Shown here: positions 1-39,254 of the stretch, piece after piece
Layout: each line of letters begins with the position of its first letter
How positions within the stretch are numbered: position 1 is the stretch's first letter
Origin: a virus
Direction: 5' to 3' (one strand)
DNA length: 64,000 nt
IMG/VR virus record: IMGVR_UViG_3300025732_000021
Coordinates: 57,868 to 121,867 of that record
Notes under the pieces: generated by a model
The model's database searches: none
Told to the model about the DNA's origin: nothing
The model's input: only the letters and a program-made list of their open reading frames with translations
Program-made: the position numbers and the translations under genes

Positions 1-812
1 TTTATAGCAGTACAATTTGTAAAAGTTTGTAATTCTTTCTCTTTATCAGTATATGGAATATGTGCAGTCCATGCTCTATTATTTGGAAGGTATTCAGCAG
101 TAGAAATAAATTTTTCTTTCATAAAATTACCCAAAAGGATACTTTTAAATCCAGAACAATCTATAAATAAGTCAGCATAAACTTTAGTGCCATTGTCTAA
201 AAGTATAGATGTTATACCATTTTCATTTCCATCAATATCAGTAACTGTACCAAATATTCTATTTACACCCCTGGGGATAGCATAATATTCTGCAAGCCAG
301 TTACCAAGTTTAGTAGCATCCATCTGCAATGCTAAATCCCTATGAGGCTGATATGGATTCATTGAGTCTATATGATCAATTACAAGTTTGTTTGTTTCCA
401 TGCTTTTAGCCTGCGGGAAAAAATATCTTACATAATCTTGATCTTCTGTTTTTGGATAAAATGCTTTTTTATAATGCCAATCATCAAGTCCATAATGTGT
501 TATTTCTGGGTCTAAATTGGGGTGTCCAAACGGATAATAAAATGTTGGCGAATCTTTAGTTTTAAAGTTAGTAAAACCTATTGCCACTTTATAGGCAGCA
601 TTTGTATATTTCATAATGCTTGAATAGTCTAAATCTAAAAAATTAAAAAATCCATTTATTTCAAATGTAGTACTTTCTCCTACACCAATAATTGGAATAT
701 CTGTGCTTTCAATTAAAGAAATATTTTTTTCTGGGTATGCTTTTATTAGTGCAGATGCAGTCATCCATCCAGCAGAACCCCCGCCAACTATTACTATTTT
801 ATTAATTTGCAT
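1..812 (-). CDS. Flavin-dependent tryptophan halogenase family protein, N-terminal part (runs off the window; absent from ORF track)
   Basis: Manual translation from ATG at 812: MQINKIVIVGGGSAGWMTASALIKAYPEKNISLIESTDIPIIGVGESTT..., with GxGxxG FAD motif, GVGES motif and AAYKVAIGF (catalytic Lys region). Confidence 0.9.
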   Translation of the reverse strand, partial: MQINKIVIVGGGSAGWMTASALIKAYPEKNISLIESTDIPIIGVGESTTFEINGFFNFLDLDYSSIMKYTNAAYKVAIGFTNFKTKDSPTFYYPFGHPNLDPEITHYGLDDWHYKKAFYPKTEDQDYVRYFFPQAKSMETNKLVIDHIDSMNPYQPHRDLALQMDATKLGNWLAEYYAIPRGVNRIFGTVTDIDGNENGITSILLDNGTKVYADLFIDCSGFKSILLGNFMKEKFISTAEYLPNNRAWTAHIPYTDKEKELQTFTNCTAI

Positions 813-2021: not shown

Positions 2022-2324
2022 TTATGACAAAAGGTCTTCTGATTGTTTTGGCGCTGTAATAATAATAGCCTTAGAACCTTCCCAACGAACTCTTCCCTTA
2101 CATCCAACATTCCATTTTGTCTCACCGTTATGCTGATTCACAATATCATAAACATATCCATGAATTTCAAATCCACTTGCTAAATTTTCAACTCCATTAA
2201 TAAAAATTCTCCATACCAAAGGATCTTCTGGTTGTGCCTTTGTATTAAACCTTACAGTAATTTCATCATATGGTCTAATCCAACGGTCTTTTACTATTTC
2301 CCAAATATATTTAATTTTATTCAT
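2022..2324 (-). CDS. Hypothetical protein
   Basis: 100 aa ORF with ATGA coupling to the upstream gene. Confidence 0.7.
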   Translation of the reverse strand: MNKIKYIWEIVKDRWIRPYDEITVRFNTKAQPEDPLVWRIFINGVENLASGFEIHGYVYDIVNQHNGETKWNVGCKGRVRWEGSKAIIITAPKQSEDLLS

Positions 2325-3082
2325 ATTCCCATTTCCTTACGTTTTTGTGTCGCAGAAATAGCCTGTATTTCTGGAGCAAGTTCAATCTGTTCAATTTTAT
2401 ATCCTACATCACGACCATAAACTATGTTAGTAATATTTGGCAAACGTAGCACCATTGCCCCATCCATAAACTCATCTTTTGAAATATATTCTTTAACTTG
2501 ATCAAATTTAAGCGGATCTTTTGGACTTGTGTTATATGTATTGCGTACCCCAAGAAGCACTTGTTTTGTTCTTTTCCCAGCCTCTTCATACAAAGCATGA
2601 TGGCCTTCATGCCAAGGCTGATATCTACCAAGCATTAATGTTGTAGGTGCTGACCAATCGTGTAAATTAAATTGATTAATGATTACCGATGCTTTTTCAT
2701 TGGCATCCCATTCATGACTAATAAATGCCATATCAAAGTTAGATGGCACTTCAAACATTTTATTAGTATCTTCAAATCTACCAGCCTCAATTGTTTCCAT
2801 ATAAACTAAAATATCTGGCTTACCAAATGCTGCACGAGTTAATTCTGTAGGACAAACAAAATCAACTACTACTGGTGCAACCCCTTGTTTTGCAATAAGA
2901 CGAGCCATCTCACCCATTCGTCTTGCCTGCTCAATCCTATCTTCATGGCTAAAGCCAAGGTCAGAATTTACGGTAGCACGAACCTCATCCGCATTAAGAT
3001 GAATAGCATTAATTCGTTCTTTTAATGCTTTTGCTAACTCTGTCTTACCAGAACCTGGTAATCCTATAATTTGTATAATCAT
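2321..3082 (-). CDS. Adenylylsulfate-kinase-like P-loop domain fused to an HxGH cytidylyltransferase-superfamily domain
   Basis: GLPGSGKT P-loop, LNADEVR, DLGFSHEDR (CysC-like); C-terminal GRYQPWHEGH and ISATQKR. Confidence 0.85.
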   Translation of the reverse strand: MIIQIIGLPGSGKTELAKALKERINAIHLNADEVRATVNSDLGFSHEDRIEQARRMGEMARLIAKQGVAPVVVDFVCPTELTRAAFGKPDILVYMETIEAGRFEDTNKMFEVPSNFDMAFISHEWDANEKASVIINQFNLHDWSAPTTLMLGRYQPWHEGHHALYEEAGKRTKQVLLGVRNTYNTSPKDPLKFDQVKEYISKDEFMDGAMVLRLPNITNIVYGRDVGYKIEQIELAPEIQAISATQKRKEMGI

Positions 3083-3285
3083 TCAAAATCCCTCTGACTT
3101 TCAAAAATTTTATTTATATCATCTTCAATTATATCAAATGATCTATTATCATGATTTTTACATACAGGATGTATTGAGTAACCATCTGCAATTATTGTTA
3201 TTGCAAAACCATCACAGTAATAACATTTAGACATAATTTTTTTATTTTTTTGTCTTAAAAATTCTAAATATTCTTTATTGTTCAT
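3079..3285 (-). CDS. Small Zn-finger-like protein
   Basis: CYYC...CKNH. Confidence 0.6.
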   Translation of the reverse strand: MNNKEYLEFLRQKNKKIMSKCYYCDGFAITIIADGYSIHPVCKNHDNRSFDIIEDDINKIFESQRDFE

Positions 3286-3287
3286 TT

Positions 3288-3728
3288 TTATACTCTTCCA
3301 ATATGATCACTACAGATTCCAGCCATCTGCATATTTAAAACATCTGCGGTTGGCATTTCTTGATGAACCAAAATACTTTTTGGTGTAACTGGCATACCAG
3401 GGTATGTCCATATATAATGATTAGTAGTTATTGTAAAATCATCTTCTTGGTGCCAAAACGCATTATAATATTTTGGCATTGATAAAACTAAATCTAAGGC
3501 TTCTAAATTTTTACAATGAATCCATAACTTTTTAATATAAGAATTTAAAAAATATATGTCGATCTCATATGTTGGTTTATCATGTCCTAAATACATTTTA
3601 TTATTTACAAACCAAAAATCTATTTCAACATTGTATCCAGCATTTATAGCCTCAGCAATATAATCTGGGGAGTTTTCTCTTGATTCATTTTTACCATATA
3701 GATTACCCCTATGTGATATTTTAATCAT
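3288..3728 (-). CDS. Minimal glycerophosphodiester phosphodiesterase (GDPD/PLC-like) protein
   Basis: ISHRGN, ENSP, VEID, LGHD, WIHCKN, GICSD motifs; this short form is typical of polysaccharide loci. Confidence 0.8.
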   Translation of the reverse strand: MIKISHRGNLYGKNESRENSPDYIAEAINAGYNVEIDFWFVNNKMYLGHDKPTYEIDIYFLNSYIKKLWIHCKNLEALDLVLSMPKYYNAFWHQEDDFTITTNHYIWTYPGMPVTPKSILVHQEMPTADVLNMQMAGICSDHIGRV

Positions 3729-4926
3729 TAACAATTCCCCACTTTTCTATAGCAGAAATATATTCTGGACCATAGGACTTATCTATAGCCTGCCTCATGG
3801 CCATAGTGCCCCCTAAAGTGCCACCAGAATGCCCGTGGATGGCTCCTCCTACGTTTGCCATATAGTTTATACCAAACCTTCTGCTTATAGCCTCTACAAG
3901 GCCAGGATGCATTCCGCAACTTAGCGCTGGCACAACATTATTATCATTTAATAAATCTATAGATCTTTTTAAATTATCTTCGTCATCACTTAAATACCCA
4001 CCCCACATACCAGTATGTATCGTATCTACTCCCATTAATGCTGCTAACTTACAAATAACATACCAATCAATTCTAAAATTATGACTAGGATTTGTTAATA
4101 TCTTATCCCCGCTTTTTTGAAAATGCATATATATTGGAAGATCCATTTTTCGTATAGAGTTATATGCTCCAAATCCGCTCCAGAAGTTTACATGTACACC
4201 ATTACCACCATTTTCATATACTGTTTTTACTCTATTTAAAATAGCATGTGGATCAGCATTAATACAATGAGCAAAAACTACCTTTCTTCCAGAATCTGCG
4301 ATAATGTTAGCAATGTGCTCAACTCTTTCTTCTAGCCTACAAAATGTTGGGTTAGATAATATTTCATCTTCTTTAATAAAATCAACGCCACCATCAATTA
4401 ACTCTTTAACTATATATCCTAGTTGTTTAACTGATATTCCAGTTTTAGGTTTTACAATACCGCCTAACAATGGCTTATTTTTTTGTCCAGTTAACTCTCT
4501 TATTCCAGACATACCAAACTTAGGGCCAAGAAAACTCTTTTTTACACTTTCTGGAAATTCAACATCTACCACTCTACATACTTTAAATACATCAATGTCT
4601 AATTGTCCACCCATAATCTGACATAAGAAATGCGAAATACCATCGTTATCCCAATCTGAATTTATTTTTGGAAAACCAATTTTAACAAAACCATTTAGTG
4701 CTAATTTTAATTTTTCTTCATCATCATAAATAACACATGATGACATTTCAAATATATCATCAGTTTCCCAACTATTTCTTTGTTTTGGATTACCAACACT
4801 TTGTCCAATAGCAAGCGCCCATGCAGCATCATTTAATCTACCATGTGAAGGATTGACTTCTATATAATATGTTACAACTATACATCTTTGTTTTTCAGAG
4901 TCGTCTAAGTCTCTATAAAACTTCAT
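3721..4926 (-). CDS. RuBisCO-like protein (form IV type, non-carboxylating)
   Basis: GPKFG, GGIVKPKTGIS, GGVDFIKEDE, GVDTIHTG, PALSCGMHPG, GGAIHGH; loop-6 Lys absent. Confidence 0.93.
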   Translation of the reverse strand: MKFYRDLDDSEKQRCIVVTYYIEVNPSHGRLNDAAWALAIGQSVGNPKQRNSWETDDIFEMSSCVIYDDEEKLKLALNGFVKIGFPKINSDWDNDGISHFLCQIMGGQLDIDVFKVCRVVDVEFPESVKKSFLGPKFGMSGIRELTGQKNKPLLGGIVKPKTGISVKQLGYIVKELIDGGVDFIKEDEILSNPTFCRLEERVEHIANIIADSGRKVVFAHCINADPHAILNRVKTVYENGGNGVHVNFWSGFGAYNSIRKMDLPIYMHFQKSGDKILTNPSHNFRIDWYVICKLAALMGVDTIHTGMWGGYLSDDEDNLKRSIDLLNDNNVVPALSCGMHPGLVEAISRRFGINYMANVGGAIHGHSGGTLGGTMAMRQAIDKSYGPEYISAIEKWGIVND

Positions 4927-5236
4927 ACTTATCTCCTATAATAGATGGAACTTTTACTACTAAAACTGAACAATCTTCTAAAAATATTGGATCTGCTATA
5001 TCTCCTGGATTAAAAACAAAAACGTCTCCAGATTTTAATTCTTTTCCTTGTATTATCATTCTACCAGATACAAGAACATTATATTCTGTTGCAACCTCAT
5101 GGTAATGTTTTGGCCACATTTCTCCAGCCTTATGAGTTAACAAACCAACCTCAAATTTATCTGTTTTTAATAAAGACGGATCAAAGTTTCCTATAATCCA
5201 TCCTCTGGTAAAGTCTTCTATTCTTCTAATTTCCAT
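4913..5236 (-). CDS. Cupin (RmlC-like) protein
   Basis: GWIIGNFDP, HYHEVATEYN cupin metal motif, VVKVPS. Confidence 0.8.
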   Translation of the reverse strand: MEIRRIEDFTRGWIIGNFDPSLLKTDKFEVGLLTHKAGEMWPKHYHEVATEYNVLVSGRMIIQGKELKSGDVFVFNPGDIADPIFLEDCSVLVVKVPSIIGDKYEVL

Positions 5237-5946
5237 AGTTTCTCCATATATAGTTCTAAATCAGAAGGTACTCCAACAGCATTATGTTGAAAAGAAGGTA
5301 TGTGATAAATTCCAATTTTTTTACCATCTTTAATCATTGAATTATAAGTAGGTCCTACATAAAATTCTCCATTATATCTTTCGTTATTTAATATCATTTT
5401 GCTTGCACTATCAACAAAATCTTTTCCATGTTTCCAATAATGTATTCCATTTAATGATATATCACTTATAATTTCTTTTTCTTTTATTTCTAAAACTAAT
5501 CCATTTTTATTTATTTTAGCATAACTATTTTTATCTGTATTTGCGGTATAAGTTACAATCATTCCATCATATTTTGAATTACGTGCTACCTGTAAAAATA
5601 AATCAGAATCCCACCACATTATTTGATCAGAGTTAGCAATTATGAGTTCTTCATCATTATTGATAAAATCTTTTGCCATCAAGCATGTTTCTGCTGGTCC
5701 ATTTGTTAATTTATCAATCTTAATAATATTACATGTTGGCTCAATGTTTTTTAATGTTGAATATAATTCATCAAAAAATATGTTATCTCTAACTACAAAA
5801 TTATACTTTCCTTTTATAGATAAAGAATTTATGGCATGCTGTATCATAGAAATTCCATTTATTTTTATTAATGGCTTAGTTGTTTTATATATGTCTACTG
5901 GAAACCTACTACCAAGTCCAGCAATTGGAATAAGTATATTAGTCAT
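5218..5946 (-). CDS. Sugar-phosphate nucleotidyltransferase, BcbE-like
   Basis: ILIPIAGLGSRF, KPLI, GPAETC, IANSDQ, EK, NGEFYVGP.YN, GVPSDL. Confidence 0.85.
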   Translation of the reverse strand: MTNILIPIAGLGSRFPVDIYKTTKPLIKINGISMIQHAINSLSIKGKYNFVVRDNIFFDELYSTLKNIEPTCNIIKIDKLTNGPAETCLMAKDFINNDEELIIANSDQIMWWDSDLFLQVARNSKYDGMIVTYTANTDKNSYAKINKNGLVLEIKEKEIISDISLNGIHYWKHGKDFVDSASKMILNNERYNGEFYVGPTYNSMIKDGKKIGIYHIPSFQHNAVGVPSDLELYMEKLWKLEE

Positions 5947-6901
5947 ATATTTTTATAAACCTTTCAAGTTCTTTTTCTATTTTATCATATTTTCTAGTGA
6001 CATTTGGTACTGATACATATATTTTTTCAGAAAATAAAGAAGATATTAGATAAAAATGAAAATGAAATTCTATATTCTGTTTAAGTAATTGTGTTGTACT
6101 TAACTCTATAATGGTTGTATTTTTTCTCATAAAAAGCAAATTAGTGAGTCCTGATCCAGATAATGAAACTATAATTTTTGCTTTATCAAAATATTTTATT
6201 TGATCTTCAATGCTATTAAACATTTCTGGGGTACATATTTCAAATCCATTGGCTCTTAATAAATTCTCTAAATATTCTTCATTATCAATTCTTAAATCAT
6301 CTTTAAATTCTAATTTATCTATTTCTTCTTGTGACATTTGGTGTAATTGTGTTGCCATCATGTTTTGTTTTTTTTGTCTAGAAACATATATTTTTTTGTC
6401 ATTAGATATAGAAAGATCTCGATATCCTTCAACCATCTCATCAAGACAGCGAATAAATTCTCCACATAACTCTGTCTCTTCGTAATAATAAAAATTTCTA
6501 ACTATTGGGGGATAAATAGAATGTGTTTGCACAACGCTATACGGAATACCATATTTTCTTAATACATTTATTACAAATAATCCACTATTATGAAAAATAT
6601 CTTTTTCTTTGCTTGGATGTAATAGTATTACCTCAATGTTTTTATCTTGTTTATATTCATATAAAATTGGACCAAGTACGTGAAAAAATATATGAAAAAA
6701 TGCTGACTCAAATCTAACGACTATCCTTTTTCTATTAGTATCATCTAAAAAGTGATCTCCGTTATTATGTTGATTAAATGTATAGCCCTTAAATTCTTCA
6801 TGAGTTATCTTAGTAATAATTGGCATAGAAGCATTAAATCCATCTTCAATTTTAAATAAGCCATCATAATATATTGGCTTTCTTGGTTCCATTCTTATCA
6901 T
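5939..6901 (-). CDS. Glycosyltransferase family 61 (DUF563-like)
   Basis: FFH, KIYVSR, RIDNEE, PE..SIEDQI.YF, SGSGLTNLLFM, IIEL. Confidence 0.8.
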   Translation of the reverse strand: MIRMEPRKPIYYDGLFKIEDGFNASMPIITKITHEEFKGYTFNQHNNGDHFLDDTNRKRIVVRFESAFFHIFFHVLGPILYEYKQDKNIEVILLHPSKEKDIFHNSGLFVINVLRKYGIPYSVVQTHSIYPPIVRNFYYYEETELCGEFIRCLDEMVEGYRDLSISNDKKIYVSRQKKQNMMATQLHQMSQEEIDKLEFKDDLRIDNEEYLENLLRANGFEICTPEMFNSIEDQIKYFDKAKIIVSLSGSGLTNLLFMRKNTTIIELSTTQLLKQNIEFHFHFYLISSLFSEKIYVSVPNVTRKYDKIEKELERFIKIYD

Positions 6902-7827
6902 AAATACTCCAAAAATTTTCTTTTTTCAAAATATTCTATTATATGCTCTGATTTTCTTTCATGTGGAATAGTAATAAGATTATGTTTTTTTGCCCAAGCA
7001 AAACCTTCATAAAATGGATGCACTTGTTGTGTTCCACCTATTAATACTGGGGTTTGCAATTCCACCACAATTTGTGATGGCTGCAAAAACATCATATTAG
7101 CCATGCCAGAACCAGATGGACATATCATTGCCTTTACACTGTCAAAATAAATAATTTGTTCTTCAAAACTTGCAAAATCTTCTGGATAAACTATGTCAAA
7201 ACCTTTTTGCTTAAAATATTCAATTAATACCTCTTCATCTTCTATCCTTAAATCATTTTTTATTCTAAAAGAATTTTGATCTTTTCCATTAAAAATACTA
7301 TTTTCTGCTTTTGGTGGAACTTTTGATCTTGCTAAATAGGCAACTTTATTAGGAGATTTAACTCTATTTATTTTAGTACTACAATAGTCATACACTTCTT
7401 TAAAAACAAAAGAAGAAAAAGGTATAACTGACATATATGTTGCATCTTTAACTACAATTGACTCTTCTTTTAAATAAACTAATTCATATTTAATTTTTTT
7501 ATCATCTAAAAGTTTTAAGATAAACTTAGCATGATTTATTTCTTTGTCTTCTTCACGATAATCTAATCCAAACATTATGACAAAATAAGCATCATTATTT
7601 ATTCTATGATAGTGTAAAATGTACTGAACCATATTAAAAAATGCATGTAAAAAATTTTTTTGCCATAAGACTAAATGAAGATCAGGTTTTTCAATTAGTC
7701 TTTCAGAAAATTCCTCATTATCTTCTAACTGTCCCATAATTGGCCATACATAACCTAATTTTGGAACACTTATTCTATGTAGTCCCTCTAGTTTATTTGG
7801 CTGCTTCCAATCTCCGTATACAAACAT
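6898..7827 (-). CDS. Glycosyltransferase family 61 (paralog of the adjacent gene)
   Basis: NFLH, AYLARS, LRIEDEE, PEDFASFEEQI.YF, SGSGMANMMFL, VVEL. Confidence 0.8.
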   Translation of the reverse strand: MFVYGDWKQPNKLEGLHRISVPKLGYVWPIMGQLEDNEEFSERLIEKPDLHLVLWQKNFLHAFFNMVQYILHYHRINNDAYFVIMFGLDYREEDKEINHAKFILKLLDDKKIKYELVYLKEESIVVKDATYMSVIPFSSFVFKEVYDYCSTKINRVKSPNKVAYLARSKVPPKAENSIFNGKDQNSFRIKNDLRIEDEEVLIEYFKQKGFDIVYPEDFASFEEQIIYFDSVKAMICPSGSGMANMMFLQPSQIVVELQTPVLIGGTQQVHPFYEGFAWAKKHNLITIPHERKSEHIIEYFEKRKFLEYL

Positions 7828-8112
7828 TTATTTTTCATTTGTCAGGATAGTCCAGACATTGCTCCAATCTTTTTCTGATCTATGGGAATTAAATTCTTTA
7901 GAAATATCACCATTTTCTAAATAAACTCCACCCCAAACTCCCCATTCTTTTTGAGAAACACCTACAGAAAAACAAGTTTTTAAGACTGGACAACTTAAAC
8001 ATAATTTGTCTATTGCTTCTCTAAAAGACTCAGATTCTTCATATTTATCAAAAAATATATTTGTGTCATATCCAAGGCAACTGGCATTATCTTTCCATTT
8101 TATTTTATGCAT
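7828..8112 (-). CDS. whiB: WhiB family Fe-S transcription factor
   Basis: W..NASC, CLSCPVLKTC, WGVWGG. Confidence 0.92.
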   Translation of the reverse strand: MHKIKWKDNASCLGYDTNIFFDKYEESESFREAIDKLCLSCPVLKTCFSVGVSQKEWGVWGGVYLENGDISKEFNSHRSEKDWSNVWTILTNEK

Positions 8113-11850: not shown

Positions 11851-12570
11851 TCATTTGATTTGAGATATGACAAGTGTGTAATGTGAGTAAAAGGTATGTA
11901 TATTGTTTTTCCATCCATTTATTATGTCAAAATTAAATGGAAAAAGTCTATATGGCTTTATAAATTCTAGAGCATTAGTAGTCTTCCCCCTTATAATTTT
12001 CTGTGTTGGCTTACTAAGATCAATACATATGGCAATATCTCTATATGGAAAAACAGTTGCTATATCCTCTAAATGTTTATTTAAAAATGGAATACATATC
12101 AGCACTATAGGACAATTAATATTAGATAATGTTTCTAAAAATTTAACTGTATCAGTATTTGGTATTCTTCCTCCAAAATAGAATTGTCCACTATCTCCAT
12201 CAAATCCTGAAAAAAATAAAGATTGTAATATTGCATTTGGACCAGGAATTAATTCAATTTCTATGTTGTTCTCTATTAAAGATTGTATTAATGGTGAAGC
12301 AAAATCTTGTATATTTGGATATCCATCATTTGACACAACAAGTATATTTTTGTTATTTTTAATACCATTTAAAATTATTTCTAAAGAATTAGAGTTATTA
12401 TATTCATATATATTGTTAATATAAACACCATTAATATCGCAAAAATTTTTGAAAACTTTTTCTGTTTCAACAATTGCTATATCTGTTTGATTTAAATAAT
12501 TTTTAAATGCTATAGCAATATGATCATTATTGCCTATTGGCATAGCAGCAAATACAACTTTTTTGTTCAT
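11851..12570 (-). CDS. Divergent RsmI-like (tetrapyrrole methylase family) SAM-dependent methyltransferase
   Basis: MPIGN, VVSNDGYPNIQD, IPGPNA...SG, FYFGG, DLSK....IRG align by eye with RsmI motifs. Confidence 0.7.
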   Translation of the reverse strand: MNKKVVFAAMPIGNNDHIAIAFKNYLNQTDIAIVETEKVFKNFCDINGVYINNIYEYNNSNSLEIILNGIKNNKNILVVSNDGYPNIQDFASPLIQSLIENNIEIELIPGPNAILQSLFFSGFDGDSGQFYFGGRIPNTDTVKFLETLSNINCPIVLICIPFLNKHLEDIATVFPYRDIAICIDLSKPTQKIIRGKTTNALEFIKPYRLFPFNFDIINGWKNNIHTFYSHYTLVISQIK

Positions 12571-14003
12571 CGTACTATTTTAGTATTGTATGCTTTTTCC
12601 CATTCTAAAATATCATTTTCATCATTTAATAATGGCTGACCTTTAATATTTAAACTTGTATTAAGTAATATTGGGATTCCAGTGACAGCATACCATTCCG
12701 ATAATAGATTGTATAGTCCTGGATGTTGATTTTTATTTACAGTTTGAACTCTAGATGTACCGTCTTTATGTACTACAGACGGTATAAGTTCTGGCTTTAA
12801 ACATTTAGGAGTATACTGCATATAAGGAGAAGTATAATTCATATCAAACCATTTTGATGCATGCTCTTCTAAAATTACTGGAGCAAAAGGCCTGAATAAT
12901 TCTCTTTTTTTAATTAAATTAACCTTATCTTTAATGTCAGGATCCCTTGGATCTGCCAAAATACTTCTGTTTCCAAGTGCTCTTGGTCCGTATTCTGCAC
13001 GTCCAGTTGCAACTGCTGCAATTTTATTTCTTATTAATTCTGCCATAATTTTACTGACTGGATACTCTCCACCAAGATCGTAACCTAAATATGGATGCTC
13101 CCAATTTAAATGATTTCCATATGCTGCTGCTGCTGCGCCAAGAGAGGATCCAGCGTCGCCTGGATTTGGCATAATCCAAACATCATCAAACATCCTCCAT
13201 AACATTGTGTTTGCTGCACAATTAAGGGCGCATCCACCCATAAAAACAAGATTCTTTTTACCAGTTAATTTTTGAGCCATGGCCATGAAATTAACTAATC
13301 TATCCTCATATATTTTTTGAACTGCTGCTGCTATATCAAACTTGGCTTGTTCATCTATTATTTCATTCCAATCTAAAATACCATTATGGAATCCATATTT
13401 TTGGTCATCTATAGATGAAAAGTATTCTTTTACCTTGTTATAATATCTTGTCCAGTCACCATATGCAGCCATGCCCATCATAATATACTCTTCTTCATTT
13501 GGTTTTAATCCAACTAATTGAGTAAAGGCAGAATAGAATAGCCCAAAACTAAATGGATGATTTTTTTTATAGACCTGCTTAATATATGATCCCTGTCCAG
13601 TCCAGATTGTTGATGTATTATATTCCCCTATGGCATCTAAAACAACTATTACTGCATCATTAAATTTACTCGTGTAATAACCTGCTGCTGCATGAGAATG
13701 GTGATGGCTAAAAGATTCTCTTGGTATCCATCTTAAATCATTTCTTTCAAGATAATAAGGTTTTCCTCCTCCGAAGCCACCCCTAGTCATTATTCTTATT
13801 TTTTTTAACCAACGATTTTCATAATATGCTATTTGATCTGGCTTACCATACGAAAGTGCTTGATCTATTAGTTCGTCGTTTGTAAACCAATCATTTTTTT
13901 CTTTACTGTATCTTTCAGCATGGCCAGCAAACAAAATGCTACCATTATCTATTAATGATACAGAAGCATCATGTGTTGTTTCATTAATTCCTAAAATTTT
14001 CAT
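12567..14003 (-). CDS. O-carbamoyltransferase (NodU/CmcH family)
   Basis: ILGIN..HDAS, HHHSHAA, DAIGE, GGCALNC, PGDAG, EYGPRALGNRS, RELFRPFAP, VHKDGTSRVQTV, LNTSLN. Confidence 0.95.
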   Translation of the reverse strand: MKILGINETTHDASVSLIDNGSILFAGHAERYSKEKNDWFTNDELIDQALSYGKPDQIAYYENRWLKKIRIMTRGGFGGGKPYYLERNDLRWIPRESFSHHHSHAAAGYYTSKFNDAVIVVLDAIGEYNTSTIWTGQGSYIKQVYKKNHPFSFGLFYSAFTQLVGLKPNEEEYIMMGMAAYGDWTRYYNKVKEYFSSIDDQKYGFHNGILDWNEIIDEQAKFDIAAAVQKIYEDRLVNFMAMAQKLTGKKNLVFMGGCALNCAANTMLWRMFDDVWIMPNPGDAGSSLGAAAAAYGNHLNWEHPYLGYDLGGEYPVSKIMAELIRNKIAAVATGRAEYGPRALGNRSILADPRDPDIKDKVNLIKKRELFRPFAPVILEEHASKWFDMNYTSPYMQYTPKCLKPELIPSVVHKDGTSRVQTVNKNQHPGLYNLLSEWYAVTGIPILLNTSLNIKGQPLLNDENDILEWEKAYNTKIVR

Positions 14004-14673
14004 AATTAATCCTCTTCTTAAATTCATTATACCAAATTAAATGTGCTGCAGGTCCAGGATGATGTTTATCATCACCAAGAATTTCACCACCATAATAATC
14101 TATATCGCTTTTATTAATTTCAAAAAAAGTATCAAAATTATTTAAAAAATCAAATTCATTTTTAGATGACCAGGAAGATGATAGAAGTTTTATATTATTA
14201 AAATAACAAAAAATTTCTAAAGATTTGTAAAAATTATAAACAACTTTATCAATATGATCTTTAATTATATATCTTCCATCCCTATGTATTGGTGGCAATA
14301 ATATAAAAATATAATCTGGATTTCCATATAAATTTATATATTTATATATATTTGATATTATTTCTATTGGCGAACCGCCTGGAAGAGAAACATTAAAAAA
14401 TCCAGAAGAATTTTTGAAATCAGAATAAACTTTATATGCCCATGTATCTTCTATATTAACACCTATACCACAAGTTATAGAACAGCCAGCAAATAAAATA
14501 TGTTCGCCATTATGATTTTTTATAAATTCATCTGATCTTAATCCATGTGAGTTTAATTTATATATTACATTACTGTTTGAAATATTTTTTCTATAATCTG
14601 GCATACCATCTTTATGCCAAAAAACTGGAGAGATAGTGGTGTTTTTTGTTAAATAATTTTCATAAAATTCCAT
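13984..14673 (-). CDS. SGNH/GDSL-like protein
   Basis: NSHGLR, AGCSITCG, N...PG, DDKHHPG (DxxH). Confidence 0.7.
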   Translation of the reverse strand: MEFYENYLTKNTTISPVFWHKDGMPDYRKNISNSNVIYKLNSHGLRSDEFIKNHNGEHILFAGCSITCGIGVNIEDTWAYKVYSDFKNSSGFFNVSLPGGSPIEIISNIYKYINLYGNPDYIFILLPPIHRDGRYIIKDHIDKVVYNFYKSLEIFCYFNNIKLLSSSWSSKNEFDFLNNFDTFFEINKSDIDYYGGEILGDDKHHPGPAAHLIWYNEFKKRINYENFRN

Positions 14674-15344
14674 TATTCCTGGCCAGTCGACATTATTGGA
14701 GTCTTCATATTATGATACCAATGTGGCATGGAATATCTAGTTCCACTAATAATTGGAGCAACTTCATGTATATATAAATAATTTGAAGGAAAGAAAATAA
14801 TACTTCCTGGTTCTGGCTTTATTTTAACATTAGAATTTGGAAAAGATATTTCTCCACCTTCGTAATCATTATTTAAATACATAACAACAGAAATTACTCT
14901 GCTACTTACCCCATGATCTTGATGTGCTGGTAGGTACCCACCTTTTTCATACCTTAAAAGGTGCACACTATATTCTCTAGACTTAATATTTCTTGATGCA
15001 AATGGATATATAATATTTGTATAATGATTTGTTGCAGCATCTAATGCATCATAAAGTCTTTTAGAGACATACTGCTGATCCTTATAATAATAATCATCTG
15101 CTCTAATGTCCTCTGGTTTTGGGAAAAATTTTTGCCAACAAAAAGTTTCTAATGTTCCAGCACTTTCATTTTGCCAAGCATGCCAGGGTTGAACTGCAGT
15201 ATAATTATCTCCGTGTTCTTTTTGATTATATTTTTCATCAACAGATTTAACTATATCAATAATTTCTTGTGGATTATTTAAAGCATTTTTATAATAAACT
15301 AATCCTAAATCTAATATTTCATAATCATAAGTAGTTAAATTCAT
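14673..15344 (-). CDS. 2OG-Fe(II) oxygenase, prolyl-4-hydroxylase-like
   Basis: HQD, SVVMYLN.DYEGGE, FFPS, HEV, GTRY. Confidence 0.9.
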   Translation of the reverse strand: MNLTTYDYEILDLGLVYYKNALNNPQEIIDIVKSVDEKYNQKEHGDNYTAVQPWHAWQNESAGTLETFCWQKFFPKPEDIRADDYYYKDQQYVSKRLYDALDAATNHYTNIIYPFASRNIKSREYSVHLLRYEKGGYLPAHQDHGVSSRVISVVMYLNNDYEGGEISFPNSNVKIKPEPGSIIFFPSNYLYIHEVAPIISGTRYSMPHWYHNMKTPIMSTGQE

Positions 15345-15927
15345 GTTCTGGCGCCCTCCATTTTGGATTCTTATCTTCTCCAAGAAAATCTGGATCTGCA
15401 TGTTGAGGAAGAGATGTATGCATATATAAAGCGGTATATCTATTGCCAGAAGTTACTTCTGTTATACCATGAATATATTCACTTCCAGCACTTGGAAAAA
15501 AGACTGCAGAATATCTTTTTGGTTGATAAATAAAATCTTGATTTGGAAAAAATATTTTTCCTCCAGTATAGTCTGGCTCCTCATTTAGATATATTATAGT
15601 ACTCCACTCAATCCATGGCTCTGGATCTTGTGCGTCTAAATGTAACGGTCCTTTTGTGCCAGTAGTCCAGTGTGAACCAAATGCCTTAAACACATATATT
15701 GGACTATTAAATCCGTTTAATTCTTTGTGAACCTCATTAGATTTATCGCCATATTTCTTTAATATAGACATTACTGTTGGGTTATATGGTAAAGATGTAC
15801 CACCAAATCTTTCTTTATAATATTCTGGATATGGAAGCCTAATTGAGTTTGGATCATTTTGTTGCTGTATTAATGTTAAAGCATCTATTGGCTCTATAAA
15901 ATTATCTATAATTTTAATTCTATGCAT
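15325..15927 (-). CDS. 2OG-Fe(II) oxygenase, prolyl-4-hydroxylase-like
   Basis: HLD, IIYLN..YTGG, FFPS, HGI, GNRY; TATAAT and AGGAGG upstream of MHRIK. Confidence 0.9.
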   Translation of the reverse strand: MHRIKIIDNFIEPIDALTLIQQQNDPNSIRLPYPEYYKERFGGTSLPYNPTVMSILKKYGDKSNEVHKELNGFNSPIYVFKAFGSHWTTGTKGPLHLDAQDPEPWIEWSTIIYLNEEPDYTGGKIFFPNQDFIYQPKRYSAVFFPSAGSEYIHGITEVTSGNRYTALYMHTSLPQHADPDFLGEDKNPKWRAPEHEFNYL

Positions 15928-37796: not shown

Positions 37797-39254
37797 TTAA
37801 AAGGTAACATCTGTCAAGTGCTTAGATAAATACTCTTTAACATCTATTCCTTCAAAGTTTTTTGCTTCATTATACAGTTTATCATATGCTTGCTTAGTTT
37901 GCAAATCTGAATACAAATTAGATCTATTAAACTGTCCAGTATTTACATATGTAGTCATCCATGACTGATATCCAAATGTTTTATTAGTATTTGAAATAAC
38001 GTATTGTGATATATAATCTTTATCTAATTCTCTTAATACATTTTCTGCATATTCTGGCATTTTATTTTCTATTTTAAAGTTTTTCCAAAATTCAGAATTA
38101 TCTTTGTCAGTTAAATAATGTATATAAATAAATCCTAATAGTTCTTTATTTTTTTGTAATATCAAATCATTATATTTTTCAATAACTGTTTCATTATTAT
38201 TTAATGTATATTCAGTTAAAAATTCTGGAGACGTAAACAATCTTAACATGTATATAGTAAGCATAATAGACGTAGCATGTAATGGTTCAAAGAATCCCGC
38301 AGCAAGCCCAACAGATAAACAATTTTTAACCCATGGTGTTTTATAATATCCTGGTTTAAAATCAAAATGATTAACTACTTTGACATCTTCTTTTTTAAAA
38401 AGAGTATAAATTTCTTCTAATGCATTTTCCTTAGATGTATATTTTGGATCGTATACATATCCGCATCCATATCTATGTTTTAACGGTGTCTTCCATACCC
38501 AACCATATTTCATTGCTATAATTTCTGTACACATAGAATAATTTTCATCTTGTGGTAAAAAGAATGCTAATGCTTTAGTACAAGGTAAACTTTCTGATGT
38601 ATCAACCCATTCAGATTGTAAGTGATGCCCAACAAATAAATTTTTAAATCCAGTAGCATCTATTAAAAAATCACATTGATAAGAACCAGACTCACAGTGT
38701 ATAACAGTAATATTTCCATTAAACTCTCCAACATGTTTAATTTTATCATCTATTATTTTTATTCCTCTTTTTGTTGACTCTTCTTTAAAAAATTCTGCTA
38801 ATTTAATAGCATCTAAATGCCATCCAATATATGGCCAAGATAGTTTATTTTTATTTGTAGCACTAAGTCCTTTATTAATATCATCTAAATTATTATTATT
38901 TGACATAACTTCTATAGATGCTAACTTAAATAATTCTAATTGTTCTTCTTTTGTAAGATCATTATCAGATACATAATTTATTAATGGATGAAAGTATGAA
39001 TCTTGTCTTTTAGACCATCCTATAAATTTTATACCGTTCTTTAATGTTGACCCAGTATGCTCTATAAATTTATCTATTGGTAATTCTAATTCATCAAAAA
39101 TATAAGCAAAGTTAGTTGTGGTTCCTTCTCCAGCACCCAGCACCCCAACTCTAGAACTATCTATTACCGTTATGTCTGCATGTGGCAATCTTTTATTAAT
39201 TGTTAAAGCAGCAAGATATCCAGCAGTACCGCCTCCAGCAACAACTACTTTCAA
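37797..39254 (-). CDS. Flavin-dependent tryptophan halogenase family protein (TTG start)
   Basis: VAGGGTAG, GAGEGT, TLKNGIKF, IDATGF, GWVWKTPL, GFFEPLHATS. Confidence 0.9.
   Translation of the reverse strand: MKVVVAGGGTAGYLAALTINKRLPHADITVIDSSRVGVLGAGEGTTTNFAYIFDELELPIDKFIEHTGSTLKNGIKFIGWSKRQDSYFHPLINYVSDNDLTKEEQLELFKLASIEVMSNNNNLDDINKGLSATNKNKLSWPYIGWHLDAIKLAEFFKEESTKRGIKIIDDKIKHVGEFNGNITVIHCESGSYQCDFLIDATGFKNLFVGHHLQSEWVDTSESLPCTKALAFFLPQDENYSMCTEIIAMKYGWVWKTPLKHRYGCGYVYDPKYTSKENALEEIYTLFKKEDVKVVNHFDFKPGYYKTPWVKNCLSVGLAAGFFEPLHATSIMLTIYMLRLFTSPEFLTEYTLNNNETVIEKYNDLILQKNKELLGFIYIHYLTDKDNSEFWKNFKIENKMPEYAENVLRELDKDYISQYVISNTNKTFGYQSWMTTYVNTGQFNRSNLYSDLQTKQAYDKLYNEAKNFEGIDVKEYLSKHLTDVTF

What the first reader, a model, noticed from the sequence alone, without database searches (positions are those of the whole stretch)
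3288..7827. Phage operon linking a RuBisCO-like protein to sugar-nucleotide synthesis and two GT61 glycosyltransferases
Seen: six overlapping, co-oriented genes in the order GT61, GT61, BcbE-like nucleotidyltransferase, cupin, RuBisCO-like protein (RLP), minimal GDPD, placed right after whiB. Established: characterised RLPs act in methionine salvage, sulfur metabolism, or catabolism of branched and acid sugars (apionate, hamamelose, threonate/erythronate); BcbE-like proteins occur in capsule loci. Inference: this RLP works biosynthetically, using enediolate chemistry on a ketose phosphate to make an unusual, possibly branched sugar. The cupin, phosphoesterase and nucleotidyltransferase would tailor and activate it, and the GT61s would transfer it to virion proteins, the host surface or DNA. 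I know of no description of such a phage system.
Basis: partly seen in the sequence, partly recalled or inferred. Interest (0 to 1): 0.92.

Follow-up and report, generated by a model that had tools for sequence, protein, structure and literature searches.

The report
Phage RuBisCO-like sugar-activation operon
A freshwater phage of the actinobacterial-phage type carries a tight six-gene operon in which a RuBisCO relative that cannot fix CO2 is tied to a sugar-activating enzyme, so it probably helps build an unusual activated sugar that two glycosyltransferases then attach, a job never shown for this enzyme family.

Summary
Window 3288-7827 (minus strand) holds six co-oriented genes that overlap by 4-19 nt, directly after whiB. 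In order: GT61, GT61, NTP_transferase-type nucleotidyltransferase (NTase), small cupin, RuBisCO-like protein (RLP), 148-aa mini-GDPD.

The RLP keeps the Mg/carbamate core but has Q and Y where my recalled numbering puts H294 and K334. It reaches no NCBIfam cut-off for RuBisCO, MtnW or OiaX.

NTase-cupin-RLP-GDPD is a conserved, mobile cassette. Among loci with at least 2.5 kb on both sides, an NTase lies within 5 kb of the RLP in 63 of 64 viral and 31 of 32 cellular loci (SAR11, Legionella, Azospirillum, CPR, DPANN). Two proteins are RLP-NTase-cupin fusions. In RLP-less relatives the same NTase is fused to a HAD phosphatase or a beta-phosphoglucomutase-like domain.

I read the RLP as the enzyme that delivers the sugar phosphate which the NTase activates. 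The substrate, product and acceptor are unknown, and "branched sugar" has no support. The GT61 pair is lineage-specific (4 of 80 loci).

Phage "form IV-like" RLPs were reported by Jaffe et al., with function unclear. My six paper searches found no description of this cassette. This scan has already noted the same cassette on other DNA (cyanophages, giant viruses). What is new here is a minimal, self-contained version in an actinophage-type genome.

The parts
7828..8112 (-). whiB-like transcription factor gene, directly upstream (0-nt gap); it marks the upstream border of the operon
   Evidence: Pfam Whib 1e-11, 45.6 bits against a cut-off of 23.6. Conserved at 79-81% amino-acid identity in the four close relatives L001, L002, L047, L072.
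6898..7827 (-). GT61a, family-61 glycosyltransferase (309 aa)
   Evidence: Pfam Glyco_transf_61 4.3e-15, 56.6 bits against 27. 25% identical to GT61b, E 2e-20. Found in only 4 of 80 RLP-bearing viral loci. dN/dS 0.17-0.31. RNA-library contigs identical to 7191-7629.
5939..6901 (-). GT61b, family-61 glycosyltransferase (320 aa), a diverged paralogue of GT61a
   Evidence: Pfam Glyco_transf_61 1e-17, 65.1 bits. These are the only two GT61 matches in the 121,867-bp phage record, which has no GT1 or GT2 match.
5218..5946 (-). Nucleotidyltransferase of the sugar-1-phosphate NTase (NTP_transferase) family, 242 aa; the obligate partner of the RLP
   Evidence: Pfam NTP_transferase 23.7 bits against 21.2. 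Weak NCBIfam hits to rmlA_long, archaeal GlmU, GlmU, IPCT and MurU, all far under their cut-offs. PDB 4evw 8e-14. Within 5 kb of the RLP in 63 of 64 viral and 31 of 32 cellular well-flanked loci. Fused to RLP in P0126 and P0127. dN/dS 0.07-0.10.
4913..5236 (-). Small metal-type cupin, 107 aa; probable sugar-phosphate isomerase
   Evidence: Family alignment A3: H44 and E51 invariant, H46 and H35 nearly invariant, which is cupin motif 1. AF2 pLDDT 97.2. Best Foldseek match is the minimal cupin phosphomannose isomerase of Thermococcus, 7zvm (E 3.4e-6, 24% identity); 7zvm is also the second-best phmmer hit at E 0.06. Present in 57 of 64 viral and 11 of 32 cellular loci. The C-terminal domain of fusion P0126 is 61% identical, E 2e-40.
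3721..4926 (-). RuBisCO-like protein (form IV-like RLP), 401 aa, non-carboxylating
   Evidence: Pfam RuBisCO_large 2.9e-38 plus the N-terminal domain. Best PDB match 8dht, 1.4e-42. NCBIfam rubisco_III 198 against 497, MtnW 153 against 409 and 129 against 514, OiaX 147 against 700. KPK and K-E-D-E motifs kept; HxHR is HFQK and GKLE is GYLS (alignment). These residues are invariant in the 26-sequence family alignment A1. dN/dS 0.07-0.09.
3288..3734 (-). Mini-GDPD: truncated glycerophosphodiester-phosphodiesterase-fold protein, 146-148 aa, catalytic motif kept
   Evidence: No Pfam, NCBIfam or PDB sequence hit. AF2 pLDDT 96.7. VIA-align top 22 all GDPD superfamily, Z 8.8-11.5. Foldseek best 1v8e, E 1.3e-3. 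Jackhmmer from a full-length GDPD gives E 1.2e-21. Invariant H8, R9, E37, D39, H51, K75 in 62 sequences.
3079..3285 (-). orf68, unknown; downstream border of the variable island
   Evidence: No family. Found in 1 of 80 loci by tblastn. Related contigs diverge from the window at about 3271-3287.
2321..3082 (-). P-loop kinase (APS-kinase-like) fused to a cytidylyltransferase-like/NMNAT-like domain, 253 aa; co-transcribed position, link to the cassette not shown
   Evidence: Pfam APS_kinase 1e-15 over residues 2-85; CTP_transf_like 2e-3. NCBIfam apsK 9e-17; NadM-type NMNAT 4e-5. PDB APS kinases about 4e-9; NMNAT 2qjt 2.8e-4. Conserved after the cassette only in L001 and L047.

Best explanation
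The operon is a self-contained glycan-decoration module with two parts.

Part 1 is a mobile four-gene cassette (NTase, cupin, RLP, mini-GDPD) that makes a nucleotide-activated sugar or sugar phosphate.
- The RLP cannot carboxylate. I infer that it uses its retained Mg/carbamate enolisation machinery on a ketose phosphate or bisphosphate drawn from central metabolism.
- By doing so it delivers the phosphorylated sugar that the NTase couples to a nucleotide. In RLP-less relatives that place is taken by a HAD phosphatase, a kinase plus phosphatase, or a beta-phosphoglucomutase-like domain.
- The cupin is most likely a metal-dependent aldose/ketose sugar-phosphate isomerase.
- The mini-GDPD is an active phosphoesterase that removes or moves a phosphoester.

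Part 2 is the two lineage-specific GT61 enzymes, which then transfer the product. In this actinophage-type phage the acceptor is most plausibly virion proteins or the host envelope.

Shown: gene content, non-carboxylase active site, conserved linkage, fusions, purifying selection.
Inferred: every chemical step, the donor and the acceptor.
For: 1. Anatomy. Six overlapping co-oriented genes, with no minus-strand terminator-like site inside.

2. The RLP is a superfamily member but not a carboxylase. The K-P-K and K-E-D-E motifs are kept; Q and Y replace the H294 and K334 equivalents; the N-terminal E60/T65/W66/N123 equivalents are lost. It lies under every NCBIfam cut-off.

3. Linkage. By tblastn, NTase is in 76 of 80, cupin in 69 of 80 and GDPD-like in 68 of 80 viral loci. 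By six-frame HMM census of loci with at least 2.5 kb on both sides, viral n=64 gives NTase 63, cupin 57, GDPD 55, all three 47. Cellular n=32 gives NTase 31, cupin 11, GDPD 22, none 1. Cellular holders include Pelagibacter, three Legionella species, Azospirillum oleiclasticum, Beckwithbacteria, Saccharibacteria and DPANN archaea.

4. Fusions. P0126 (813 aa) and P0127 (817 aa) are RLP-NTase-cupin fusions. A Micrarchaeota NTase is fused to a GDPD-like domain.

5. Replacement logic. RLP-less loci L208 and L203/L204 keep the same cupin (56-57% identity) and the same NTase, now fused to a HAD phosphatase. L208 also has a PfkB kinase and a cytidylyltransferase-like gene upstream. Of the 36 longer relatives of the NTase, 30 are fusions of beta-phosphoglucomutase-family HAD with NTase, 38-49% identical to the window NTase.

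6. Context. Flanking families in other loci are an SDR epimerase/dehydratase, CmcI-like and FkbM methyltransferases, WavE, GT11, GT2, GT17 and LicD.

7. Constraint. dN/dS is 0.07-0.13 for RLP, NTase and cupin, 0.12-0.26 for GDPD and 0.17-0.34 for the GT61s (dS is near saturation).

8. Self-contained. In the phage record, which CheckV rates 100% complete, the two GT61s are the only matches among the GT61, GT1 and GT2 families. There is no SDR epimerase.

9. Weak expression hint. Metatranscriptome libraries of three studies hold contigs of the operon. Contigs from two of them are identical to the window. DNA carry-over is not excluded.
Against: - No biochemical datum exists for any of the six proteins.
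- The operon encodes no kinase or mutase, so the entry substrate is a guess.
- The cupin is missing from most cellular cassettes (21 of 32). The GDPD is missing from about a quarter of loci. So neither can be essential to the core reaction.
- The GT61s are not co-conserved with the cassette (4 of 80). That they use its product rests only on adjacency and translational coupling.
- In Legionellaceae the neighbour is LicD (4 of 4 loci), and a GDPD recurs widely. This fits a phosphodiester-linked substituent at least as well as a glycosyl donor.
- The cupin's similarity to phosphomannose isomerase is not discriminating. Many unrelated cupins score within one order of magnitude.
- The NTase family also contains non-sugar members such as IPCT and IspD-like enzymes; weak hits appear.
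- The RNA evidence is contigs only and cannot show a transcript.
Confidence: 0.68

Rival explanations
1. Phosphodiester-substituent pathway. The NTase makes an NDP-activated (probably CDP-type) sugar phosphate or polyol phosphate, such as a ketopentose or pentitol phosphate shaped by the RLP. This is installed as a phosphodiester-linked side group, as in teichoic acids. The GDPD-fold protein would edit or transfer that phosphodiester. This is a variant of the main reading that differs in the donor type.
For: A LicD-family gene (1e-42) sits divergently next to RLP-NTase in 4 of 4 Legionellaceae loci. That LicD proteins transfer phospho-alcohols from CDP-donors is recalled knowledge. A GDPD, mini or full-length, accompanies the RLP in 68 of 80 viral and 33 of 48 cellular loci. 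It is full-length Pfam GDPD in DPANN and is fused to an NTase in L103. Weak NTase hits to IPCT and IspD models.
Against: LicD was found in none of the 160 viral loci nor in the window. The window's transferases are GT61, a glycosyl-transfer family. The NTase scores better against sugar-1-phosphate NTases (RmlA, GlmU, AglF) than against alcohol-phosphate ones. RLP-less relatives carry heptose-pathway-like partners, namely PfkB, a HAD phosphatase and beta-PGM-like domains.
Confidence: 0.2
2. Salvage of S-adenosylmethionine by-products. The RLP and cupin work as in methionine salvage or the Rhodospirillum MTA-isoprenoid shunt (RLP plus a cupin acting on methylthio-pentulose phosphates; recalled knowledge), and the NTase is incidental.
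For: An RLP plus small cupin pair and a phosphoesterase resemble the MtnW / MtnD (cupin) / MtnX (phosphatase) trio. MtnW models give the third and fifth best NCBIfam scores. MtnW structures score 1e-34 to 1e-28 in the PDB search.
Against: Scores are far below the MtnW cut-offs: 153 against 409 and 129 against 513.6. The position where MtnW carries its catalytic Lys (the N123 equivalent, recalled) is an invariant Gly in this family. The cupin is absent from 21 of 32 cellular cassettes, whereas the NTase is nearly always present and is sometimes fused. The neighbours I scanned are glycan genes; no salvage family appeared among them.
Confidence: 0.04
3. Auxiliary carbon-fixation or catabolic gene. 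The protein is a working RuBisCO, or a catabolic RLP of the apiose/acid-sugar type that boosts host carbon metabolism during infection.
For: The best-scoring models are form III RuBisCO (198 bits) and the generic large subunit (183 bits), and OiaX scores 147 bits. The best structure match is a RuBisCO.
Against: All scores are under half of the cut-offs. The H294 and K334 equivalents are Q and Y, the R295 and H298 equivalents are K and D, and the N-terminal active-site residues are lost. These replacements are invariant or nearly so (90% or more) across the family. No catabolic family (transporter, kinase, dehydrogenase) appeared among the flanking ORFs I scanned in the operon or in the conserved cassette.
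Confidence: 0.03

Closest known systems
'Form IV-like' RuBisCO-related proteins of phages and Beckwithbacteria (Jaffe, Castelle, Dupont & Banfield, Mol Biol Evol 2019; PMC6389311; passages read)
   Same: They are phage-borne, highly divergent RLPs that keep only some key residues and were recovered from many environments. The cellular relatives I recovered include a Beckwithbacteria genome (L090, 50% identity), matching their grouping.
   Different: That paper left the function 'unclear', discussed lateral transfer and carbon metabolism, and assigned some of the phages to Myoviridae. In the passages I saw it does not describe the NTase-cupin-GDPD cassette, the fusions, or holders such as SAR11, Legionella and Azospirillum. 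I could not see its supplementary figures, which may show gene contexts. The present phage is an actinophage-type genome: whiB, and a DnaE polymerase 55% identical to those of Streptomyces phages.
NDP-heptose pathway logic: isomerase GmhA, kinase HldE/HddA, HAD phosphatase GmhB, NTase HddC/HldE (recalled knowledge; weak HddC model hits)
   Same: RLP-less relatives of the cassette have the same parts list. These are an isomerase-like cupin, a PfkB kinase, a HAD phosphatase fused to the NTase, and a cytidylyltransferase-like gene. The shared logic is ketose-P to aldose-P to sugar-1-P to NDP-sugar.
   Different: In the window neither kinase nor HAD phosphatase is present; an RLP and a mini-GDPD stand there instead. 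The isomerase is a cupin, not a SIS-domain GmhA. No model reaches an equivalog cut-off.
Type II phosphomannose isomerase / GDP-mannose pyrophosphorylase (AlgA/XanB type: NTase plus C-terminal cupin; recalled) and the minimal cupin PMI of Thermococcus (7zvm)
   Same: NTase and cupin are adjacent, and in P0126/P0127 they lie in one chain. The cupin's best structural and near-best sequence match is the 104-113-aa archaeal PMI.
   Different: Identity is only 24% and other cupins score almost as well. An RLP is inserted in the system. No phosphomannomutase is present. The sugar is unknown.
Characterised RLPs: MtnW enolase, Rhodospirillum rubrum RLP with its cupin partner, OiaX/OiaT of apiose catabolism (recalled; models)
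   Same: Same fold and the same retained Mg/carbamate enolisation core. The substrates of all known members are keto-sugar phosphates, and one known member works next to a small cupin.
   Different: All known roles are salvage or catabolism, and none is linked to a nucleotidyltransferase or to glycosyltransferases. Model scores are 129-153 against cut-offs of 409-700.
Virion glycosylation by actinobacteriophage-encoded glycosyltransferases (Freeman et al., Cell Host Microbe 2023; seen only as a reference-list entry, content recalled)
   Same: An actinophage-type genome with its own glycosyltransferase genes. This offers a precedent for virion proteins as the acceptor.
   Different: As far as I recall, those phages use host nucleotide sugars and other GT families. 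Here the phage brings its own donor-synthesis cassette and GT61 enzymes. The acceptor was not tested.

Membership tests
RuBisCO large-chain superfamily (Pfam PF00016 / PF02788) | Significant match to the catalytic and N-terminal domain models above the gathering scores | tested here: met
   PF00016 scores 132.2 bits against 30.1. PF02788 scores 23.4 bits against 20.7.
Bona fide RuBisCO (forms I-III) | Complete catalytic set including the H294 and K334 equivalents and the N-terminal E60/T65/W66/N123 equivalents (numbering recalled) | tested here: not met
   The alignment to 8dht shows HGHR replaced by HFQK and GKLE replaced by GYLS. It also shows AESSTGTW replaced by IGQSVGNP and GN replaced by GG. 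Q270 and Y311 are invariant in A1.
Bona fide RuBisCO (forms I-III) | Score over the NCBIfam equivalog cut-off | tested here: not met
   rubisco_III 198.4 against 497.45. PRK04208 183.2 against 438. Form II PRK13475 107 against 489.
MtnW (2,3-diketo-5-methylthiopentyl-1-phosphate enolase) | Score over the equivalog cut-off; catalytic Lys at the N123-equivalent position (recalled) | tested here: not met
   NF007095 scores 153 against 409. TIGR03332 scores 129.3 against 513.6. The N123-equivalent position is an invariant Gly.
OiaX (3-oxo-isoapionate-4-phosphate decarboxylase RLP) | Score over the equivalog cut-off | tested here: not met
   147 against 700.
'Form IV-like' phage/Beckwithbacteria RLP clade (Jaffe et al.) | Groups with phage and Beckwithbacteria sequences, outside the classical form IV clades | tested here: inconclusive
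   234 viral stretches and a Beckwithbacteria genome (L090, 50% identity) are close relatives. No tree with that paper's own sequences or with labelled reference forms could be built here.
Glycerophosphodiester phosphodiesterase (GDPD) superfamily | GDPD TIM-barrel fold with the H-R ... E-x-D ... H catalytic/metal motif | tested here: met
   VIA-align Z 11.5 to 1o1z, with the top 22 all GDPD-type. H8, R9, E37, D39 and H51 are invariant. Jackhmmer from a Pfam-verified GDPD gives E 1.2e-21.
Glycerophosphodiester phosphodiesterase (GDPD) superfamily | Direct match to Pfam PF03009 | tested here: not met
   No Pfam family at E <= 0.01. The protein is about 100 residues shorter than typical GDPDs (target lengths 217-330).
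Glycosyltransferase family 61 (Pfam PF04577) | Match over the gathering score | tested here: met
   56.6 and 65.1 bits against 27. Confirmed in the whole phage record.
Sugar-1-phosphate nucleotidyltransferases (Pfam PF00483) | Match over the gathering score; N-terminal G-x-G-x-R loop | tested here: met
   23.7 bits against 21.2. The motif AGLGSRF is at residues 9-15, and G10, G12 and R14 are conserved in A5. No NCBIfam equivalog is reached, so nucleotide and sugar specificity are open.
Cupin superfamily | Double-stranded beta-helix fold with the H-x-H-x(3,4)-E metal motif | tested here: met
   Foldseek finds 199 chains at E <= 1e-3. H44, H46 and E51 are conserved. Pfam Cupin_2 itself is under its cut-off, 21.4 against 27.2.
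   No library or search output here carries that name.

The most novel reading that the evidence does not exclude
This RLP clade catalyses a reaction new to the RuBisCO superfamily and new to nucleotide-sugar biosynthesis. It would take a ketose 1-phosphate or 1,n-bisphosphate from central metabolism (fructose-, sedoheptulose- or ribulose-bisphosphate type). Through a phospho-enediolate it would convert this directly into the aldose 1-phosphate, or a rare epimer of it, that the fused or adjacent NTase activates. It would thereby replace the kinase plus phosphatase, or the phosphomutase, used by RLP-less cassettes. Hundreds of aquatic phages, SAR11, Legionella and ultra-small archaea would use the resulting rare sugar on their surfaces. 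In this phage two GT61 enzymes would put it on virions.
Probability: 0.2. Interest if true: 0.9.

Novelty: new variant of a known kind. Interest (0 to 1): 0.74.

Why it matters
The function of the large phage-borne branch of the RuBisCO superfamily has been open since it was reported; Jaffe et al. called the functionality unclear.

Four lines of evidence give that branch a concrete, testable job, namely feeding a nucleotidyltransferase in glycan biosynthesis:
- near-obligate pairing with one NTase family;
- RLP-NTase-cupin fusions;
- replacement of the RLP by HAD phosphatase or phosphomutase-like domains in sister cassettes;
- embedding in glycan-gene islands.

Every characterised RLP I know of works in salvage or catabolism (recalled knowledge).

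The window offers the smallest natural version: four cassette genes plus two GT61 genes, with no other recognisable GT or SDR gene in a complete 122-kb phage genome. That makes it convenient for cloning as one 4.5-kb piece. Cultured holders exist for genetics: Azospirillum oleiclasticum, Legionella nautarum, L. maceachernii, L. drozanskii and a Pelagibacter strain.

If the product decorates virions or host envelopes of abundant freshwater and marine microbes, it also bears on phage-host recognition.

Tried and rejected
- Labelled RLP phylogeny. I could not obtain sequences of reference forms. Clade placement therefore rests on model scores and on the paper's description.
- RLP against the GenBank phage collection (tblastn): no match. 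The collection may leave out near relatives of the window.
- Complex prediction on RLP plus NTase: no verdict, and not used as evidence either way.
- The 504-aa class of longer NTase relatives (6 of 36). I suspected NTase::GDPD fusions. hhalign against A2 gave nothing, and NCBIfam shows two tandem NTase domains.
- The 706-aa ORF in the Azospirillum locus looked like an RLP-NTase fusion. It is a wrong-frame artefact of high G+C. The locus has separate GDPD-like, RLP, cupin and NTase genes.
- The most frequent extra neighbour in other loci (about 250 aa, 46 loci) is DUF7796 (13 of 23 members). It has no PDB relative and no homologue in the window.
- Promoter-like sites: 47 found against 49.8 expected. 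Terminator-like sites: 2 against 2.3, both on the plus strand. No transcription signals can be claimed.
- DNA as acceptor. There is no thymidylate-synthase-like or C5-methylase match in the phage. The 2OG-Fe oxygenase at 14673-15401 matches Tet_JBP only weakly (4e-4, under the cut-off). DNA is not excluded, just unsupported.
- LicD in viral loci or the window: none.
- The NTase tree is the quick version. The careful search did not finish, and the nesting of the HAD-fused NTases has support 83 only.
- Parts of the operon without RNA-library contigs say nothing.
- Paper searches with no relevant hit: 0 papers each; one review; none of the eight papers listed, of 162 matched, concerns RLPs.
- PMC12801897 and PMC12619734 contain no 'RuBisCO', 'ribulose' or 'cupin'.
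- PMC10527164 is not held.
- I did not open supplementary files. Jaffe et al.'s supplementary figure S1 may show phage gene contexts.

Full report
**What is there.**
On the minus strand of window 3288-7827 lie six ORFs of 309, 320, 242, 107, 401 and 148 codons.
- They follow a 94-codon whiB gene (7828-8112) without a gap and overlap one another by 4, 8, 19, 14 and 14 nt.
- Pfam names them Glyco_transf_61 (4.3e-15), Glyco_transf_61 (1e-17), NTP_transferase (4.2e-5, over the cut-off), Cupin_2 (2e-4, under the cut-off) and RuBisCO_large plus RuBisCO_large_N (2.9e-38 and 7.6e-5). The last gene gets no family.
- The two GT61 proteins are diverged paralogues (25% identity, E 2e-20).
- Downstream follow a 68-codon ORF and a 253-codon fusion of an APS-kinase-like P-loop domain with a cytidylyltransferase-like/NMNAT-like domain.
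- No terminator-like site lies on the coding strand inside the array. Promoter-like matches are at chance level.

**The phage.**
- The record is 121,867 bp and CheckV rates it 100% complete; the window is its second half.
- It encodes a DnaE-type polymerase 55% identical to those of ~127-kb Streptomyces phages.
- It also encodes DnaB, a terminase, tail proteins and whiB, so it is an actinophage-type genome.
- G+C is about 30%.
- The public runs that hold the stretch are mostly freshwater metagenomes (rows from 18 studies, some of them possible sources of this DNA).
- The host is not shown.

**The RuBisCO-like protein.**
- The best solved relatives are archaeal-type RuBisCOs (8dht 1.4e-42, 2cwx 1.7e-39), followed by MtnW enolases.
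- NCBIfam scores all fall far below cut-offs: form III 198 against 497, generic large subunit 183 against 438, MtnW 153 against 409 and 129 against 514, OiaX 147 against 700.
- The printed alignment to 8dht keeps K-P-K and the K-x-D-E carbamate/Mg motif (here K-E-D-E), the H327-equivalent His, and the S-x-G and G-G phosphate loops.
- It replaces H-G-H-R by H-F-Q-K and G-K-L-E by G-Y-L-S, and it loses the N-terminal E60/T65/W66/N123 equivalents. The spinach numbering is recalled, not computed here.
- Q270, Y311 and the N-terminal loop G41-P47 are invariant in a 26-member family alignment.
- So this is a non-carboxylating RLP with an intact enolisation core. It is not an MtnW, whose catalytic Lys position (recalled) is an invariant Gly here.

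**The other three cassette proteins.**
- The 148-aa protein has no sequence hit in Pfam, NCBIfam or the PDB. Its AF2 model (pLDDT 96.7) matches GDPD-superfamily chains in all of the top 22 VIA-align rows (Z 8.8-11.5, ~140 residues aligned). The best Foldseek rows are also GDPDs (1v8e, E 1.3e-3).
- Sixty-two family members keep H8, R9, E37, D39, H51 and K75. A jackhmmer search seeded with a Pfam-verified full-length GDPD from a DPANN RLP locus retrieves the window protein at E 1.2e-21. 'Minimal GDPD' is therefore right, and the catalytic motif argues for an active enzyme.
- The cupin (pLDDT 97.2) keeps the H-x-H-x4-E metal motif. Its best structural match is the 104-113-aa cupin phosphomannose isomerase of Thermococcus (7zvm: E 3.4e-6, 24% identity; E 0.06 by sequence). 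Other cupins score nearly as well, so this is only a lead.
- The NTase resembles sugar-1-phosphate nucleotidyltransferases (4evw 8e-14, then GlmU and RmlA). It reaches no equivalog model.

**Conservation of the cassette.**
- The RLP has thousands of relatives. The best 120 listed are 58-96% identical, and one is from a complete Pelagibacter genome. In addition, 234 viral-contig stretches encode a relative.
- In the 80 best viral loci, tblastn with the window's proteins finds the NTase in 76, the cupin in 69 and the GDPD-like gene in 68. It finds the GT61 pair and whiB in only 4, which are the close relatives L001, L002, L047 and L072.
- A scan of species-representative genomes gave 48 cellular loci. 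They include Pelagibacterales, Legionella nautarum, L. maceachernii and L. drozanskii, Tatlockia and Azospirillum oleiclasticum. They also include Francisellaceae, Turneriella, Verrucomicrobiota, Planctomycetota, Beckwithbacteria, Saccharibacteria and Woese-, Pace-, Nano- and Micrarchaeota.
- I ran a six-frame HMM census within 5 kb of the RLP, restricted to loci with at least 2.5 kb on both sides. This dropped 16 viral and 16 cellular loci. Viral n=64 gives NTase 63, cupin 57, GDPD-like 55 and all three 47. Cellular n=32 gives NTase 31, cupin 11, GDPD-like 22, all three 8 and none 1.
- With the broader GDPD profile, a GDPD of either size is present in 68 of 80 viral and 33 of 48 cellular loci.
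- RLP plus NTase is thus the obligate pair. The cupin and the GDPD are frequent companions.
- Other recurrent neighbours are an SDR epimerase/dehydratase, CmcI-like and FkbM methyltransferases, WavE, GT11, GT2, GT17 and a multi-copy DUF7796 family. These are glycan-biosynthesis islands.

**Fusions and replacements.**
- Two long relatives, P0126 (813 aa) and P0127 (817 aa), are RLP-NTase-cupin in one chain. The NTase domain is 33% identical to the window's (E 2e-29) and the cupin domain 61% (E 2e-40).
- A Micrarchaeota locus has an NTase fused to a GDPD-like domain.
- Seeding with the cupin instead of the RLP gave at least 582 viral stretches. Of the best 80 loci, 76 hold the RLP, though many are the same contigs as before.
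- Of the four that lack it, L207 is cut off right after the cupin. L203 and L204 have only 142 nt upstream of the cupin. L208 has 5 kb on both sides.
- In L208 and L203/L204 the same-family cupin (56-57% identity) is followed by the same-family NTase fused to a HAD phosphatase domain. L208 also has a PfkB sugar kinase and a cytidylyltransferase-like gene just upstream, with WavE, FkbM and GT genes and a GDPD-like gene downstream.
- Among 36 longer relatives of the window's NTase, 30 are fusions of a beta-phosphoglucomutase-family HAD domain with the NTase (38-49% identical). The other six are tandem NTases.
- In a quick tree the HAD-fused NTases nest among RLP-linked ones, with support 83.
- The parts list of the RLP-less version is isomerase-like cupin, kinase, phosphatase and NTase. 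That is the logic of NDP-heptose synthesis (recalled). The RLP stands where the enzymes that produce the sugar 1-phosphate stand.
- This independently confirms a lead from earlier notes of this scan (e1-5536532, e1-5602592).

**Selection and expression.**
- Against the four close relatives, dN/dS is 0.07-0.09 for the RLP, 0.07-0.10 for the NTase, 0.08-0.13 for the cupin, 0.12-0.26 for the mini-GDPD and 0.17-0.34 for the GT61s. dS is about 1 and near saturation.
- The core trio is 83-88% identical in amino acids where the GT61s are 52-63%.
- Contigs from metatranscriptome libraries of two studies are identical to parts of GT61a, the NTase, the NTase/GT61b junction and the downstream kinase-fusion gene. 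A third study holds 93-97%-identical contigs over RLP, cupin and NTase. This is presence in RNA libraries, not proof of transcription.
- In one DNA run a contig joins 3287 to 8035, skipping the whole operon (30-nt anchor, so weak). Several contigs diverge from the window at 8035/8036 and 3271-3287. This suggests that the operon occupies a variable slot between whiB and orf68.

**How it most likely works.**
- Shown: a non-carboxylating RLP; an intact NTase, cupin, GDPD-fold phosphoesterase and two GT61s in one translationally coupled array; near-obligate RLP-NTase linkage across viruses, bacteria and archaea; fusions; purifying selection.
- Inferred: the RLP enolises a ketose phosphate or bisphosphate and hands the NTase its substrate. 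The cupin interconverts aldose and ketose phosphates. It is dispensable where the cell has its own isomerase, which would explain its absence from SAR11, DPANN and Legionella cassettes. The mini-GDPD removes or moves a phosphoester. The GT61 pair transfers the activated product.
- This phage has no other GT1, GT2 or GT61 match and no SDR epimerase. The operon is therefore the phage's whole recognisable glycosylation kit. It does not depend on a phage-encoded 4,6-dehydratase route.
- The acceptor is open. Virion proteins have a precedent in actinophages (Freeman et al. 2023; seen only in reference lists, content recalled). DNA has no support.
- A serious variant is a phosphodiester-linked substituent, given LicD next to RLP-NTase in all four Legionellaceae loci and the recurrent GDPD.
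- Nothing supports a branched sugar.

**Novelty.**
- Phage RLPs were published by Jaffe et al. (PMC6389311). In the passages I read they report about 80 phage sequences grouping with Beckwithbacteria, call the functionality unclear, and do not mention the neighbouring genes. I could not see their supplementary figures.
- Six full-text searches found no paper that links an RLP to a nucleotidyltransferase, a cupin, SAR11 glycan islands or phage glycosyltransferases.
- The RLP has no tblastn match in the GenBank phage collection searched.
- This scan has already flagged and followed up the same cassette in T4-like cyanophages and giant viruses. The cassette is therefore not new to the scan.
- This window adds an actinophage-type host lineage and a minimal cassette-plus-two-GT61 layout. 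It also adds the RLP-NTase-cupin triple fusion, the beta-PGM-like and HAD replacements, and the LicD and full-length GDPD neighbours.
- I rate it a new variant of a known kind. It is a known but unassigned RLP clade in a new, well-supported functional context, with the chemistry still to be shown.

Noticed in passing
window 2321-3082 (-): A 253-aa fusion of an APS-kinase-like P-loop domain (residues 2-85) with a cytidylyltransferase-like domain carrying a GRYQPWHEGH motif of the NMNAT type. It may be an NAD-salvage enzyme or a kinase-plus-nucleotidyltransferase analogue of HldE. It is conserved directly after the cassette only in L001 and L047.
   Followed up: partly
window 3271-3287 and 8035-8036: In one DNA run a contig joins 3287 to 8035 and skips the whole operon (30-nt anchor). 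RNA- and DNA-library contigs of relatives diverge from the window at the same two borders. The operon looks like a replaceable island between whiB and orf68.
   Followed up: partly
window 11851-15401 (-): Upstream are further possible tailoring genes. These are a TP_methylase-like protein (11851-12570), a NodU/CmcH-type carbamoyltransferase (12567-14027, 1e-52) and a 2OG-Fe(II) oxygenase (14673-15401, 2e-17; Tet_JBP only 4e-4).
   Followed up: no
window 3-812 (-) and 37797-39305 (-): Two tryptophan-halogenase-family flavoprotein genes in one phage genome (Pfam 3.2e-51; PHROG 5.8e-90).
   Followed up: no
L121, L122, L124, L125 (Legionella nautarum, L. maceachernii, L. drozanskii, Tatlockia): The RLP-NTase pair has no cupin or GDPD here. 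It lies divergently next to a LicD-family gene (1e-42), a CMD-family gene and a Wzy-like gene. These are cultured organisms in which the RLP's role could be tested.
   Followed up: partly
L117 3891-6750 (Azospirillum oleiclasticum RWY-5-1-1): A cultured bacterium with the full GDPD-like, RLP, cupin, NTase cassette (RLP 39% identical). An APS-kinase-like region lies a few kb away.
   Followed up: partly
L003-L080 and others, e.g. L080 9176-9928: A multi-copy ~250-aa family (DUF7796; 13 of 23 members match) is the commonest extra neighbour of the cassette (46 of 128 loci). It often has several copies per locus, no solved relative, and is absent from this window.
   Followed up: partly
P0134-P0163 (proteins): Thirty clusters of ~455-aa proteins fuse a beta-phosphoglucomutase-family HAD domain to an NTase 38-49% identical to the window's. 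Their gene neighbourhoods could not be fetched.
   Followed up: partly
L208 3131-6441; L021, L163, L187: A PfkB kinase plus cytidylyltransferase-like pair (a split HldE-like arrangement) occurs next to the cupin in the RLP-less locus. It also occurs in three RLP-bearing loci, so it is probably a second, separate sugar-activation module in these islands.
   Followed up: partly
window 45829-58891 (-): Two very long ORFs (1477 and 2662 codons) in the structural region; not examined.
   Followed up: no
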